29,017 nucleotides of DNA from an uncultured Bacilli bacterium (GTDB lineage: Bacteria; Bacillota_I; Bacilli_A; RF39; UBA660). Position numbers and translations under genes: made by a program. Each line of letters opens with the position of its first letter. The stretch's first letter is position 1. The stretch covers positions 1 to 29,017 of the forward strand of contig CANPYA010000001.1 of assembly GCA_947587565.1 (NCBI GenBank), given 5' to 3'. Positions 743-4,588 of the stretch are shown piece by piece. A model generated the notes under the pieces. That model saw only the letters and a list, made by a program, of their open reading frames with translations, was not told the origin of the DNA and made no database searches.

Positions 743-3235
743 ATGAATCAAGAAAAAGATAAAATAATTGAAAATAATATAGTTCCAGAAATAAAAAAGG
801 CATTTATTGATTATTCTGTAAGTGTTATTATGTCAAGAGCAGTTCCCGACTTACGTGATGGTCTTAAACCTGTTCATAGAAGAATTTTATGGTCAATGTA
901 TGAATCAGGATATACACCTGATAAACCACATCGTAAATCAGCTCGTATAGTTGGTGATGTTATGGGTAAATATCATCCACATGGTGATTCAAGTATTTAT
1001 GATGCGATGGTAAGACTTGCTCAAGATTTTAATTTTACTCATACACTTGTAGATGGTCATGGGAATTTTGGTAATATTTCTATTCCAAGACCAGCAGCAT
1101 CGCGTTATACCGAAGCAAGACTTTCGAGAATTTCCTTAGAATTATTAAGAGATATAAATAAAGATACTGTTAATTTTATGCCAAACTTTGATGAATCTGA
1201 ACAAGAACCAGAAGTATTGCCATCTAGATTTCCAAATATTTTAGTTAGTGGTACTATGGGTATTGCGGTTGGAATGGCGACAAATATTCCTCCACATAAT
1301 TTAGGAGAAGTTATTGATGGCTGTGTAGCTTATATTGATAACCCAGATATTGATACTGCTGGATTAATGCAATATATTAAAGGTCCGGATTTCCCAACTG
1401 GTGGTATTATTTTAGGTAATAGTGGAATTAAAAAAGCTTATGAAACTGGTCGCGGTACGATAACAATTCGTAGTAAAGCCACTATTGAAGAAAAAAATGG
1501 TAAAAATTACATTATTATTGATGAAGTACCATATGGTGTGAATATCACAGAATTAAAAGATAAAGTTGCGGAACTTGTTCATAATAAAATAATAGATGGT
1601 ATTGCTGATTATCATACTGATTTAAAAGATGGTTTAAAGATAACTATTACCTTAAAAAAGGAAGCAAATCCGCAAGTTGTATTAAATAACTTATATAAAC
1701 ATACCCAATTTCAAATGAGTTATGGTATTATTTTCTTAATGATTGATAATAAAGTACCTAGAACTTTAGGACTAAAAGATATTATATCTAAATATATTAA
1801 TTATCAAGAAGAAGTAATTATTCGAAGAACTAAATTTGAATTAGATAAAGCCGAAAAAAGAGTACATATCTTAGAAGGTTATAAAATAGCATTAGATAAT
1901 TTAGATGATTTTATTAAGATAATAAGAGAATCAGAGACAGATGTTATAGCTAAAGAAACCTTAATGAAAAAGTATGGTTTAACTGATGTTCAAGCTGATG
2001 CGATTTTAGAATTAAAACTTCGCCGTTTAACTGGTCTAGAAAGAGCTAAAATTGAAGAAGAATTAAGAGATTTATTAGCTAGAATTGAAGAATTAAAGGC
2101 TATACTTGCTTCAAGAGATAAGATATTAGAAATAATTAAGAATGAATTATTAGAAATCAAAGAAAAATATCCTGCTGATCGTCGAACAAAGATCGATATG
2201 ACTGCAATTGAATACATTGAAGATGAATCATTAATACCTGAGGAAGATTCGATGGTTGTTTTAACTAATAATGGTTATATTAAGAGAACAACAAATGATA
2301 CATTTAAAGTTCAAAATCGTGGTGGACATGGTGTTAAAGGCCTTACAACTAATGATGAAGATTATGTTGAACATTTAATTAACTTATCAACTCACGATTA
2401 TATAATGTTCTTTACAAATAAAGGTAAAGTATATCGTTTAAAAGGTTATGAAATTCCTGAATTTGGTCGTCAATCTAAAGGAATACCGGTTATTAACTTA
2501 TTACAAATTGAAAAAGATGAAAAAATTAATTCAGTAATTAAGGTTGGTAAAGATGATGAATATAAATATTTATTCTTTGCTACTAAAAAGGGTATTGTTA
2601 AGAAAACATTACTAAATGAATTTGAAAATATCCGAACTTCTGGTAAAATTTGTATTAATCTTAAAGATAATGATGAATTATTGGATGTTAAGAAGACAAA
2701 TGGTAATAGTTTAATCTTACTTGGTAGTAGTAATGGTCGCATGGTTAAATTTGATGAAAATGAAATAAGAGCTATGGGTAGAACTGCATCTGGTGTAAGA
2801 GGAATTAATCTTGGTGATGGAACTTGTATTTGTGCTGAAGTTGTTAACGAAGATTCAATGATCTTGCTAGTTACAGAAAAAGGTTATGGAAAACGGACAA
2901 AAGTTTGTGATTTCAGACAAACTAAACGTGGTAGTAAAGGTGTTCTAGCTCTTAATATTACGGAAAAGAATGGTAATCTAGTCGCATCAAAGATAGTTGA
3001 AGACGATAAAGATGTTATTATTATGACAAATGTTGGTATTACAATTAAATTACCAGTGGAACAAATTTCCATACTAGGTCGTGTTACTCAAGGATTAAGA
3101 TTGATCTCACTTCGTGAAAATCAATTTGTAGCTACTATAAGTGTTGTTGATAAAGTTGCTGAAGAAATTGAAGAAGGAACAGAAGAAGTTGAATCTGATA
3201 ATGTTCAAAACAATCAAAGTAGTGAAAACGAATAA
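743..3235 (+). CDS. gyrA: DNA gyrase subunit A
   Basis: DGLKPVHRR, GKYHPHGDS, catalytic RYTEARL, GIAVGMATNIPPHN; C-terminal beta-pinwheel repeats with GyrA-box-like QNRGGHG (argues against ParC); RBS AGGAGG at 731-736. Confidence 0.96.
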   Translation: MNQEKDKIIENNIVPEIKKAFIDYSVSVIMSRAVPDLRDGLKPVHRRILWSMYESGYTPDKPHRKSARIVGDVMGKYHPHGDSSIYDAMVRLAQDFNFTHTLVDGHGNFGNISIPRPAASRYTEARLSRISLELLRDINKDTVNFMPNFDESEQEPEVLPSRFPNILVSGTMGIAVGMATNIPPHNLGEVIDGCVAYIDNPDIDTAGLMQYIKGPDFPTGGIILGNSGIKKAYETGRGTITIRSKATIEEKNGKNYIIIDEVPYGVNITELKDKVAELVHNKIIDGIADYHTDLKDGLKITITLKKEANPQVVLNNLYKHTQFQMSYGIIFLMIDNKVPRTLGLKDIISKYINYQEEVIIRRTKFELDKAEKRVHILEGYKIALDNLDDFIKIIRESETDVIAKETLMKKYGLTDVQADAILELKLRRLTGLERAKIEEELRDLLARIEELKAILASRDKILEIIKNELLEIKEKYPADRRTKIDMTAIEYIEDESLIPEEDSMVVLTNNGYIKRTTNDTFKVQNRGGHGVKGLTTNDEDYVEHLINLSTHDYIMFFTNKGKVYRLKGYEIPEFGRQSKGIPVINLLQIEKDEKINSVIKVGKDDEYKYLFFATKKGIVKKTLLNEFENIRTSGKICINLKDNDELLDVKKTNGNSLILLGSSNGRMVKFDENEIRAMGRTASGVRGINLGDGTCICAEVVNEDSMILLVTEKGYGKRTKVCDFRQTKRGSKGVLALNITEKNGNLVASKIVEDDKDVIIMTNVGITIKLPVEQISILGRVTQGLRLISLRENQFVATISVVDKVAEEIEEGTEEVESDNVQNNQSSENE

Positions 3236-3242
3236 AAAATTC

Positions 3243-3282
3243 AAATAAAAATATTTCCCGGGAAATATTTTTATTTTGTTTT
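3243..3282 (+). terminator. Probable intrinsic terminator after gyrA (34-bp perfect palindrome followed by T-rich run); overlaps NBS 1
   Basis: AAATAAAAATATTTCCC|GGGAAATATTTTTATTT at 3243-3276, beginning 8 nt after the gyrA stop. Confidence 0.55.
3252..3267. promoter_or_regulatory. Noc-binding site (NBS) 1, perfect
   Basis: TATTTCCCGGGAAATA, identical to the established Bacillus Noc site (core ATTTCCCGGGAAAT). Confidence 0.85.
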
Positions 3283-3305
3283 TAATTATACTTATGTATC
3301 AAAAT

Positions 3306-3321
3306 TATTTCCCGGGAAATA
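3306..3321. promoter_or_regulatory. Noc-binding site (NBS) 2, perfect
   Basis: TATTTCCCGGGAAATA inside a near-perfect 30-bp palindrome (3299-3328, one mismatch). Confidence 0.85.
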
Positions 3322-3437
3322 TTTTTGAAAATTTTTATCACATTTTTATAAATTTATCAACTATAAAATAGGTAATTTTACATAAATTTTACATTTTATG
3401 ATTTAATGTTGTGCTGTTTAAAAAATTAAATTAATAA

Positions 3438-3453
3438 TGTTTCACGTGAAACA
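3438..3453. promoter_or_regulatory. parS centromere site 1 (ParB/Spo0J binding), perfect
   Basis: TGTTTCACGTGAAACA, the universal parS palindrome, in the origin-proximal gyrA region. Confidence 0.93.
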
Positions 3454-3619
3454 TAGATTATTAAAAATTAAATTAAGTAAAAAATTAAAAAGTTAGAAAT
3501 TATATAATTTATAAAAATAAGTATTGAATAGTTAAAATTATAATATATTAATAAATGCATGTGGTAAAAAAATATTAGAAACACTTTAAATGAAAAAGAT
3601 GTATTTATATTAAATTTAA

Positions 3620-3654
3620 ATAATTGATAGATATACTTATAATTGATAGATATA
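3620..3654. repeat. 16-bp direct repeat, two copies, 19-bp period
   Basis: ATAATTGATAGATATA at 3620-3635 and 3639-3654. Confidence 0.7.
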
Positions 3655-3904
3655 TTTAGCATAGATTTATTTTTTTAAAATTAATATTTTTTTAATTGCA
3701 TTTGATTGTTATAATTATTTATAAATTTTGTGTGTACTTTTATATTATTTTGTTTTATAAAAAATACTAAAAAATCTAATATTTGTGATTTTGATTAAAA
3801 ATAGATCAATATTCTTTTAAAATTATTAATAATTAATTATATAAATTTAACTAATTTAATGTTTATTATATAGTTAATAAAATAAAATGTTCTTTTTGCA
3901 TATA

Positions 3905-3920
3905 TGTTTCACGTGAAACA
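3905..3920. promoter_or_regulatory. parS centromere site 2, perfect
   Basis: TGTTTCACGTGAAACA. Confidence 0.93.
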
Positions 3921-3981
3921 TCAAAAAAAGTGTTAGTATTATATTTTTAAAAATAAATTAAATAATTTTATGATGAAAAAA

Positions 3982-3997
3982 TATTTACCGGGAAATA
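3982..3997. promoter_or_regulatory. Noc-binding site (NBS) 3, one mismatch
   Basis: TATTTACCGGGAAATA within AAAAATATTT-ACCGGG-AAATATTTTT (3977-4002). Confidence 0.75.
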
Positions 3998-4046
3998 TTT
4001 TTAAAGGAAGCCACTAATGTTAAAATATTAATTTTAAAAATTAAAA

Positions 4047-4075
4047 TTGCATAATAATAAAAATTATGTTATTAT
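4047..4075 (+). promoter_or_regulatory. sigma-A-type promoter for SRP RNA
   Basis: TTGCAT (4047-4052), 17-nt spacer, TG at 4067-4068, TATTAT (4070-4075); predicted start ~4082 coincides with the 5' end of the SRP stem. Confidence 0.7.
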
Positions 4076-4081
4076 CTAAAT

Positions 4082-4152
4082 GCACAACAAATATACTGTA
4101 AACTGGTCAGAGTTGGAAGACAGCAGCCATATCAGTTCCTATTTGTGTGTGC
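4082..4152 (+). ncRNA. ffs: Small bacterial signal recognition particle RNA (4.5S type)
   Basis: Helix-8 core GGTCAGAGTT-GGAA-GACAGCAGCC matches the SRP consensus GGUCAGGUCC-GGAA-GGAAGCAGCC; closing stem GCACAACAAATA / TATTTGTGTGTGC; T7 tract at 4153-4159; next to tadA/dnaX as in Bacillus. Confidence 0.88.
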
Positions 4153-4177
4153 TTTTTTTATATATAGGAGTGTTAAA

Positions 4178-4588
4178 ATGAATAAATATATGAAAATTGC
4201 CTATAAAGAAGCATTAAAGGCATATCGTAAAGATGAAATACCAGTTGGAGTAGTCATAGTACATAATAATAAAGTTATTGCTAAAGCTCATAATGATCGT
4301 CAAAAAAAATATAATGTTTTAGGTCATGCTGAAATAAATGCAATTTTAAAAGCTGAAAAAAAATTAAAAGATTGGCGTTTAGATAAATGTGAAATGTATG
4401 TTACATTAGAACCATGCAAAATGTGTCAAATGATAATTGAAGAATCTAGAATTAATAAAATAAATTATTTAATTTCTCAAAAAAAAGATACAAAAAATAA
4501 TATTAAATATATACAAACAAATGATTGCAATAATATAAAAGAAGAATATAAAAAAATCTTAAATAATTTTTTTAAAAAATTACGATAA
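4178..4588 (+). CDS. tadA: tRNA-specific adenosine deaminase (nucleoside deaminase family)
   Basis: EIPVGVVIV, zinc motifs HAE and TLEPCKMC. Start moved from GTG 4145 (inside SRP RNA) to ATG 4178 behind AGGAG (4166-4170). Confidence 0.88.
   Translation: MNKYMKIAYKEALKAYRKDEIPVGVVIVHNNKVIAKAHNDRQKKYNVLGHAEINAILKAEKKLKDWRLDKCEMYVTLEPCKMCQMIIEESRINKINYLISQKKDTKNNIKYIQTNDCNNIKEEYKKILNNFFKKLR

What the first reader, a model, noticed from the sequence alone, without database searches (positions are those of the whole stretch)
3243..4002. Interleaved parS and Noc-binding-site hub (NBS-NBS-parS...parS-NBS) in a dedicated AT-rich spacer
Seen: a gene-free ~850 bp spacer (about 14% GC by hand count over 3241-4080) whose GC-containing islands are largely five 16-bp palindromes: NBS 3252-3267, NBS 3306-3321, parS 3438-3453, parS 3905-3920, NBS 3982-3997. 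Centre-to-centre distances are 54, 132, 467 and 77 bp. Known: ParB (parS) and its paralog Noc (NBS) are CTP-dependent sliding clamps with switched specificity; ParB recruits SMC and Noc tethers DNA to the membrane and blocks division. Inference: this is a compact combined centromere and nucleoid-occlusion loading locus, with parS bracketed by NBS, where Noc might bound ParB spreading, anchor the origin to the membrane, or where one paralog reads both sites. I do not know of a described locus with this nested layout.
Basis: partly seen in the sequence, partly recalled or inferred. Interest (0 to 1): 0.8.

Follow-up and report, generated by a model that had tools for sequence, protein, structure and literature searches.

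The report
Interleaved ParB and Noc site hub
About 9 kb from the replication origin, this uncultured gut bacterium keeps a gene-free, very AT-rich spacer holding exact docking sites for two sister DNA-clamp proteins (ParB and an unusual Noc); the layout recurs in related species and I found no published description of it.

Summary
The gyrA-ffs spacer (840 bp, 13.7% GC) carries two perfect parS, two perfect Noc-binding sites (NBS) and one NBS with one mismatch, at the stated coordinates. The assembly has no other parS. Its only other NBS lies about 6 kb away, just after dnaN.

The genome encodes Soj-ParB and, after rsmG, a Noc-type paralogue with the NBS-reading residues Q173, K179 and R201. 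This paralogue lacks the N-terminal membrane helix that defines Noc and has a roughly 160-residue disordered acidic linker.

Seventeen of 18 same-genus genomes hold a site array in the same spacer, 16 of them with both site types. NBS is the outermost site next to gyrA in all 16 and at both ends in 11 (2.7 expected). The one genus member without NBS has a mutated Noc recognition helix. On a complete 1.46-Mb relative chromosome, all NBS and the single parS fall within 23.5 kb.

My reading is a two-clamp centromere in which Noc marks the origin rather than the whole nucleoid. Binding itself and the purpose of the bracketing are inferred, not shown. This is a new variant of known systems. I found no published description, but this scan has reported the same arrays in other genomes.

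The parts
743..3235 (+). gyrA, left border of the hub
   Evidence: 830-aa ORF. The same gene (76-90% aa identity) borders the site array in 17 of 18 relatives.
3236..4075 (.). Gene-free AT-rich spacer (13.7% GC) that carries the sites
   Evidence: Second-longest ORF-free gap of 636 in the assembly. No DnaA boxes and no Rfam match.
3252..3267 (.). NBS-1, perfect TATTTCCCGGGAAATA, 17 bp after the gyrA stop. With its A/T flanks it can also fold as a hairpin followed by a U run.
   Evidence: Fold of -11 kcal/mol, z -2.7. A gyrA-proximal NBS is present in all 16 relatives' hubs that have NBS.
3306..3321 (.). NBS-2, perfect
3438..3453 (.). parS-1, perfect TGTTTCACGTGAAACA
   Evidence: One of only two parS (up to 2 mismatches) in the whole assembly.
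3454..3904 (.). 451-bp inter-parS tract, 11.1% GC, with a 19-bp tandem direct repeat at 3620-3657
   Evidence: Length and sequence are not conserved among relatives.
3905..3920 (.). parS-2, perfect
3982..3997 (.). NBS-3, one mismatch (TATTTACCGGGAAATA; the C shared by parS and NBS half-sites is replaced by A), probably a weakened site
   Evidence: Relatives have a perfect NBS at the ffs-proximal end in most hubs.
4076..4161 (+). ffs (small SRP RNA), right border of the hub; tadA-dnaX-ybaB-recR follow
   Evidence: Rfam RF00169, 54.4 bits; ORFs.

Best explanation
The spacer is a dedicated, origin-proximal loading locus for two paralogous ParB-family CTP clamps. ParB, encoded with Soj on contig C82, nucleates at the two parS sites. 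A Noc-type paralogue, encoded after rsmG on contig C5, nucleates at the flanking NBS. In this bacterial family Noc has only a handful of sites, and all of them lie around the parS cluster. [quoted passage not shown] The recurring order (NBS outermost, parS in pairs inside, N-PP-N modules) and the unusually long non-coding DNA in a compact genome suggest how it works. I propose that Noc dimers on NBS bracket a short private track on which ParB clamps accumulate, and that both proteins build one mixed nucleoprotein complex. What is shown: the sites, both genes, their specificity residues, conservation, genome-wide exclusivity, and co-loss of NBS with Noc recognition residues. What is inferred: actual binding, clamp behaviour and the purpose. 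My split for purpose is: origin-restricted division control or anchoring through partners of the Noc linker about 0.4; boundary for ParB sliding about 0.25; control of replication initiation as in S. aureus about 0.15; other about 0.2.
For: Sites
- The sites are exact and non-random.
- Genome-wide there are only 3 perfect and 1 one-mismatch NBS, all within about 7 kb (window 3252-3997 plus C79:2689 just after dnaN), and both parS are here.

Proteins
- Two ParB-family genes exist.
- The Noc-type protein aligns best to solved Noc structures 7NG0, 7NFU and 7OL9. It has Q, K and R at the NBS-specific positions and intact GERR and ENxQR CTP motifs.
- PMC7383237 shows that Q173 plus R201 with a single K at 179 or 184 suffices for NBS specificity.
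- In the tree, ParBs form a 100/99 clade that excludes the Noc-type proteins.

Conservation
- 17 of 18 genus genomes carry 2-7 parS and 0-7 NBS in the same spacer. The 16-mers are perfect although gyrA is only 76-90% identical and the spacer varies from 364 to 1610 bp.
- NBS is at the gyrA end in 16 of 16 hubs and at both ends in 11 of 16, against 2.7 expected.
- 85 of 99 family genomes have 1-10 perfect NBS.
- On the complete chromosome CP091726.1, 5 NBS and 1 parS lie within 23.5 kb of 1.46 Mb.

Natural covariation
- 98 of 99 family Noc loci are Q-K-x-R.
- The exception, G002, has L at position 173 and a rewritten recognition helix. It has 6 parS and no CCCGGG-core site in the whole genome.
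- G087 and G089 also have altered residues and no NBS at up to 1 mismatch. G082 and G103 have no Noc gene and no perfect NBS 16-mer; they were not scanned with mismatches.

Context
- FtsZ, SMC, PBPs and Soj are present; no MinD scores above its cut-off.
Against: No binding data exist for any member of this family. The Noc-type protein scores 274.7 bits, below the NCBIfam Noc cut-off of 315. It lacks the N-terminal amphipathic helix that is required for Noc function in B. subtilis (PMC4331003), so classical membrane-linked nucleoid occlusion may not apply. Position 184 is never K in this family. The bracketing statistic treats related genomes as independent, and five hubs end in parS on the ffs side. 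The third NBS in this window is imperfect. The genus ParB has S instead of the otherwise invariant G at position 201, plus K or N at 184. That combination leaves room for ParB also touching NBS. One family genome with an intact Q-K-x-R Noc (G083) showed no NBS at up to 1 mismatch.
Confidence: 0.75

Rival explanations
1. ParB alone reads both palindromes. The genus ParB (R173, L179, K/N184, S201) would be a dual-specificity variant, and the NBS would be secondary ParB sites that widen the centromere. The Noc-type protein would do something else.
For: All 19 genus ParBs have S at position 201 and mostly K at 184. PMC7383237 states that G201 is invariant in extant ParBs and that dual parS+NBS binders in its deep mutational scan mostly carry S or T at 201, with K/R at 179/184 permissive.
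Against: The same paper also lists S at 201 among parS-specific variants. A Noc-type protein with Q-K-x-R is kept in 98 of 99 loci. NBS disappear exactly where that protein's recognition residues change, while ParB stays S201 (G002). Family members with G201 ParBs still have NBS-type sites with 0-1 mismatch, for example G056 and G091.
Confidence: 0.08
2. The CCCGGG palindromes are structural RNA or DNA elements (bidirectional intrinsic terminators or cruciforms at operon ends), not protein sites.
For: NBS-1 with its A and T runs folds at -11 kcal/mol directly after gyrA. Satellite NBS in relatives sit right after dnaN and right after recR, which are operon 3' ends. Flanks are A-rich on one side and T-rich on the other.
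Against: A terminator tolerates compensatory change. Here 16 of 16 bases are invariant in 55 sites of the genus, and 85 of 99 family genomes carry the perfect 16-mer. That 16-mer equals the experimentally defined NBS (PMC8429893, PMC7383237). There are only 1-10 copies per genome, all near parS, often several in tandem inside an untranscribed spacer. The terminator scan found none. The sites vanish together with Noc recognition residues. A secondary terminator role for NBS-1 remains possible.
Confidence: 0.04
3. The Noc-type clamp is mainly a KorB-like transcriptional silencer. Loaded at NBS, it would slide to and repress neighbouring promoters (ffs, tadA-dnaX, dnaA-dnaN, or promoters inside the hub).
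For: In relatives, 23 of 42 hub NBS are followed on the ffs-facing side by a conserved promoter-like element, TTGGTTTACATAAT. KorB is a ParB-family clamp that silences at a distance (PMC11790492, listed). The Noc-type protein lacks the membrane helix.
Against: The element is absent from this window's hub. The tight association is with parS rather than with particular promoters. No KorA-like partner was sought or seen.
Confidence: 0.1

Closest known systems
Noc-NBS nucleoid occlusion system of Bacillus subtilis and Staphylococcus aureus (Wu et al. 2009; PMC4331003; PMC8429893; PMC5540599)
   Same: The 16-bp site is identical. The protein is a ParB-family paralogue with the same NBS-reading residues (Q173, K179, R201) and intact CTP motifs. 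The gene follows rsmG. The organism is a Firmicute.
   Different: There are about 70 scattered sites in B. subtilis and 41 loci across the origin-proximal half in S. aureus. Here there are 4 sites within about 7 kb, interleaved with parS. The N-terminal amphipathic membrane helix, said to be conserved in all Noc homologues examined, is missing. A roughly 160-residue acidic disordered linker with conserved short motifs is inserted before the C-terminal domain. The score is below the NCBIfam Noc cut-off.
Chromosomal ParABS centromere of Firmicutes (Spo0J/Soj with origin-proximal parS; SMC loading)
   Same: Perfect consensus parS lie about 9 kb from dnaA. A soj-parB operon and SMC are present. 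ParB has the N-terminal ParA-contact motif and R173.
   Different: The parS are clustered in one gene-free spacer instead of being dispersed in genes over hundreds of kb. They are bracketed by sites for a second clamp. ParB carries S instead of the otherwise invariant G at position 201.
KorB-KorA of plasmid RK2 (ParB-family clamp that also silences promoters; PMC11790492)
   Same: It is a ParB-family CTP clamp whose specific sites sit next to promoters and partition functions on the same DNA.
   Different: It is a plasmid system with one protein and one site type. No evidence of promoter control was obtained here.

Membership tests
Noc (nucleoid occlusion protein, TIGR04285) | ParB/Noc fold with CTP-binding motifs (GERRxRA, ENxQR) and a ParB-type HTH | tested here: met
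   Pfam ParB_N 5e-35 and HTH_ParB 4e-34. Motifs align to the Noc structures 7NG0, 7NFU and 7OL9 and to Spo0J 6SDK. The AF2 model is confident over residues 1-206.
Noc (nucleoid occlusion protein, TIGR04285) | NBS-specificity residues Q173, R201 and K at 179 and/or 184 (PMC7383237) | tested here: met
   Q, K, T and R in this genome. Q-K-x-R in 98 of 99 family loci.
Noc (nucleoid occlusion protein, TIGR04285) | N-terminal amphipathic membrane-targeting helix (residues 1-14; F5, F8 and F9 essential; PMC4331003) | tested here: not met
   The protein starts about 10 residues before the first conserved strand, and its residue 5 aligns to residue 25 of B. subtilis Noc. All 34 aligned family members have equally short N-termini. 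A similar [SN][KR]FF motif sits in the linker instead.
Noc (nucleoid occlusion protein, TIGR04285) | Curated NCBIfam score cut-off (315 bits) | tested here: not met
   274.7 bits, covering model positions 1-198 of 255.
Noc (nucleoid occlusion protein, TIGR04285) | Many NBS spread over the origin-proximal half to two-thirds of the chromosome | tested here: not met
   4 NBS-type sites within about 7 kb. 5 NBS within 23.5 kb of a complete 1.46-Mb relative chromosome. 1-10 per genome family-wide.
Noc (nucleoid occlusion protein, TIGR04285) | Gene directly downstream of rsmG (gidB) | tested here: met
   mnmG-rsmG-noc order on C5.
Noc (nucleoid occlusion protein, TIGR04285) | CTP-dependent clamp closure, spreading, membrane recruitment and inhibition of division | not testable with these tools
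   Needs biochemistry and cell biology.
ParABS chromosomal partition system | Consensus parS near the origin | tested here: met
   Two perfect TGTTTCACGTGAAACA about 9 kb from dnaA.
ParABS chromosomal partition system | ParA and ParB genes; ParB with R173 and G201 | tested here: inconclusive
   soj-parB are present and R173 is kept, but position 201 is S in all 19 genus genomes.
ParABS chromosomal partition system | SMC condensin available for loading | tested here: met
   977-aa SMC above the TIGR02168 cut-off.

The most novel reading that the evidence does not exclude
In this family Noc has been converted from a genome-wide nucleoid-occlusion factor into a centromere component. It would have lost its membrane helix and gained a long disordered linker with conserved docking motifs. 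Its few sites would fence a private AT-rich track on which ParB clamps are confined. The result would be a two-clamp bacterial kinetochore that couples origin segregation to division or initiation in a Min-less cell. The ParB with S at position 201 might additionally cross-read NBS.
Probability: 0.3. Interest if true: 0.85.

Novelty: new variant of a known kind. Interest (0 to 1): 0.72.

Why it matters
ParB and Noc are the two model CTP-switch DNA clamps. So far they have been studied as separate systems acting on separate parts of the chromosome. Here evolution has placed their loading sites side by side, as little as 7 bp apart in relatives, and has restricted Noc to the centromere.

This gives a natural system for three open questions: what happens when two kinds of sliding clamps meet, whether a site-bound paralogue can bound ParB spreading, and what Noc does without its membrane helix.

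It also supplies natural tests of the published specificity code. One is a ParB with S201. Others are Noc variants that lost Q173 together with all of their sites.

The hub is small (under 1 kb) and both genes can be synthesised. The key experiments can therefore be done in vitro or in B. subtilis even though the organism is uncultured.

Tried and rejected
- oriC or a DNA-unwinding element: rejected. No DnaA box with up to 1 mismatch occurs in this hub, and almost none in 16 relatives' hubs, whereas boxes occur around dnaA on C79.
- A hidden gene or RNA in the spacer: rejected. The only ORF (3468-3662, minus strand, 64 aa) is unconserved AT-rich noise. Rfam finds nothing before ffs.
- Terminator-only reading: rejected as the main explanation (see rivals).
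- Recent duplication of the genus ParB as the source of the Noc-type gene: rejected by the tree.
- Looking up fitness values for the exact residue combinations (RLKS, QKTR, QKSR, QKNR) in the supplements of PMC7383237: the variant table is not held as text.
- Whether outgroup Bacilli with canonical Noc have scattered consensus NBS: four such genomes had no TTTCCCGGGAAA at all. This is left unexplained.
- Literature searches for a described NBS-parS array found none.

Full report
**Observation**

The window is contig C1 of a 1.19-Mb, 143-contig, 27% GC metagenome-assembled genome, 92% complete. An 840-bp stretch at 13.7% GC lies between gyrA (743-3235) and the small SRP RNA gene (4076-4161, Rfam 54.4 bits).

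It holds the following sites:

| Site | Coordinates | Sequence | Status |
|---|---|---|---|
| NBS-1 | 3252-3267 | TATTTCCCGGGAAATA | perfect |
| NBS-2 | 3306-3321 | TATTTCCCGGGAAATA | perfect |
| parS-1 | 3438-3453 | TGTTTCACGTGAAACA | perfect |
| parS-2 | 3905-3920 | TGTTTCACGTGAAACA | perfect |
| NBS-3 | 3982-3997 | TATTTACCGGGAAATA | one mismatch |

Two details are overstated. The third NBS is not a perfect palindrome. The five sites hold only 29 of the spacer's 115 G/C bases. Each 16-mer is expected 0.0003 times in the whole assembly. The spacer is the second-longest ORF-free gap of 636 in this compact genome, where the median is 65 bp.

**Genome-wide distribution**

The assembly has no other parS, even with 2 mismatches. 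It has only one other NBS, at C79:2689. C79 carries dnaA-dnaN-NBS-orf-recF and the 5' part of gyrB, so it adjoins the start of the window. All four NBS-type sites and both parS therefore lie within about 7 kb, and the hub is about 9 kb from the start of dnaA. The hub has no DnaA boxes, so it is not oriC.

**The proteins**

The genome encodes two ParB-family proteins.

- On C82, soj is followed by a 297-aa ParB. It has the usual N-terminal ParA-contact motif and R at position 173.
- On C5, mnmG-rsmG is followed by a 405-aa Noc-type protein.

The best solved-structure matches of the Noc-type protein are Noc of Geobacillus and Bacillus (7NG0, 7NFU, 7OL9). The GERR and ENxQR nucleotide motifs are intact. 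At the four positions that set parS or NBS preference it has Q173, K179, T184 and R201. Jalal et al. showed that Q173 reads adenine 1 and R201 reads cytosine 6 of NBS, and that a single lysine at 179 or 184 is enough to permit this (PMC7383237). A maximum-likelihood tree puts all ParBs in one clade (support 100/99) that excludes the Noc-type proteins, so the gene is not a recent ParB copy.

The protein nevertheless departs from Noc in several ways.

- It scores 274.7 bits against the NCBIfam Noc model, whose cut-off is 315.
- It begins about 10 residues before the first conserved strand. It therefore lacks the N-terminal amphipathic helix that B. subtilis Noc needs for membrane binding and function (PMC4331003; alignments).
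- The AlphaFold model is confident for residues 1-206 and 366-405. The roughly 160 residues between them are disordered and acidic.
- That linker holds two conserved short motifs. One has an invariant FF in [SN][KR]FFN, which recalls S6-R7-F8-F9 of the B. subtilis helix.
- The linker motif is flanked by acidic residues. I therefore rate a relocated membrane motif at only about 0.3; a protein-docking motif is at least as likely.

**Conservation**

In 17 of 18 other species of the genus, the same gyrA-ffs/tadA spacer carries 2-7 parS and 0-7 NBS. Almost all are perfect 16-mers, although gyrA is only 76-90% identical, tadA is 49-71% identical, and the spacer ranges from 364 to 1610 bp. The 18th, G015, has no assembled array: only its dnaN-proximal NBS was found.

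Read from gyrA to ffs (N = NBS, P = parS), the orders include NNPPN (this window), NPPN, NPPNPPN, NNNPPNN and NNPPPPNN.

- NBS is the gyrA-proximal outermost site in 16 of 16 hubs that have both site types.
- NBS is at both ends in 11 of 16, against 2.7 expected under random order. That test treats related genomes as independent.
- Hetero-site gaps are as short as 7-9 bp in relatives.
- Extra NBS recur just after dnaN and just after recR.

Across the family, 85 of 99 genomes from 66 genera have 1-10 perfect NBS, mostly clustered on one contig. On the complete 1.46-Mb chromosome CP091726.1, five NBS and the single parS lie within 23.5 kb. Public records name these organisms only as uncultured gut Bacilli from rabbit, goat and human samples, related to Coprobacillus sp. 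CAG:605 and Firmicutes bacterium CAG:321.

**Natural covariation**

Of 99 Noc-type loci, a few of which duplicate the same genome, 98 have Q-K-x-R.

- The exception is G002, the one genus member whose hub has six parS and no NBS. Its whole assembly has no CCCGGG-core site. Its recognition helix is rewritten, with L at position 173. Its closest relative in the tree, G007, has four NBS.
- Elsewhere in the family, G087 and G089 have altered specificity residues and no NBS at up to 1 mismatch.
- G082 and G103 have no Noc-type gene and no perfect NBS 16-mer; they were not scanned with mismatches.
- Six of seven genomes with intact residues but no perfect 16-mer do have clustered NBS-type sites with 0-1 mismatch.

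This is the strongest computational evidence that the Noc-type protein, and not ParB, maintains the NBS.

**Context**

The genome has FtsZ, SMC, five penicillin-binding proteins and Soj, but no MinD above its cut-off. It is therefore a walled, FtsZ-dividing, Min-less cell.

**Mechanism**

I conclude, with confidence of about 0.75-0.85 for this core, that the spacer is a composite loading locus. ParB loads at parS and the Noc-type clamp loads at NBS.

In B. subtilis Noc has about 70 scattered sites. In S. aureus it has 41 loci over the origin-proximal half, and each spreads 8-10 kb (PMC5540599). Here, the same spreading from four sites would cover only dnaA to recR. Noc would then mark the origin rather than the nucleoid.

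Two features suggest that NBS-bound Noc fences a short track for ParB clamps: the outermost position of NBS, and the long gene-free DNA kept between the sites in a compact genome. This step is inference.

Alternative or additional roles are origin-specific control of division or anchoring through the linker motifs, and control of initiation as reported for S. aureus Noc.

**Rivals**

- A terminator-only reading fails on the invariance of all 16 bases, the low copy number and the co-loss with Noc residues. NBS-1 may still double as the gyrA terminator (-11 kcal/mol).
- A ParB-reads-both reading draws on an unexpected fact. All 19 genus ParBs have S at position 201, where G is reported as invariant, and dual binders in the published scan mostly have S or T there. 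However, NBS vanish in G002 while ParB stays S201.
- A KorB-like silencing role is hinted at by a promoter-like element beside 23 of 42 NBS in relatives. That element is absent from this window.

**Novelty**

Four literature searches found no description of interleaved NBS and parS, or of origin-restricted NBS. Earlier findings of this scan, on other genomes of the same group, describe the same arrays and reached the same reading. My results agree with them and add several points:

- the covariation cases;
- the S201 ParB;
- the order statistics;
- the satellite NBS sites;
- the distribution on a closed chromosome;
- the linker motifs.

I class this as a new variant of known systems.

Noticed in passing
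G000 contig C82 (locus L004:1378-2271) and loci L160-L175: All 19 same-genus ParBs have S at the position equivalent to Caulobacter G201, and K or N at 184. The literature calls G201 invariant in extant ParBs and links S/T there to dual parS+NBS binding.
   Followed up: partly
Relatives' hubs, e.g. L007:4097-4140, L008:7861-8290, L018:8018-8060: 23 of 42 perfect NBS are followed on the ffs-facing side by TTGGTTTACATAAT (up to 2 mismatches), and only 3 on the gyrA side. In a few places the element flanks both sides, giving a palindrome of about 46 bp. It could be a promoter overlapping the NBS or a third protein site. It is absent from this window's hub.
   Followed up: partly
L011, L013, L018, L008 (hubs of G007, G009, G014, G004): Further palindromes of the form taCCAAttcttannagaatTTGGca recur just upstream of NBS in some relatives. 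Their function is unknown.
   Followed up: no
window 3620-3657: A 19-bp tandem direct repeat (ATAATTGATAGATATAYTT, two copies) sits in the middle of the inter-parS tract. It was not seen in relatives.
   Followed up: no
Outgroup genomes G022, G023, G026, G028 (loci L042-L044, L047): These Bacilli encode Noc proteins with Q-K-x-R (three of the four with a hydrophobic N-terminal start, two shown next to parB). Their genomes contain no TTTCCCGGGAAA at all, so their Noc sites must differ from the consensus or be very degenerate.
   Followed up: no
Family genomes G073:C21:59182-59508, G056, G065: A recurrent one-mismatch NBS variant, ATTTCCTGGGAAAT, is used repeatedly. In G073 four copies lie about 105 bp apart, which suggests a tolerated central-base variant.
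   Followed up: no
L003:1477-2694 (Noc-type protein, residues 207-365): The disordered acidic linker carries two conserved short motifs, PNKFFNFLEDE (FF invariant in 34 aligned relatives) and E[ML]LDF.AP. More distant relatives carry a second NKFF copy.
   Followed up: partly
window 4145-4180: The listed tadA ORF start (GTG at 4145) overlaps the SRP RNA. An ATG at 4178, preceded by AGGAG, is the more likely start.
   Followed up: no
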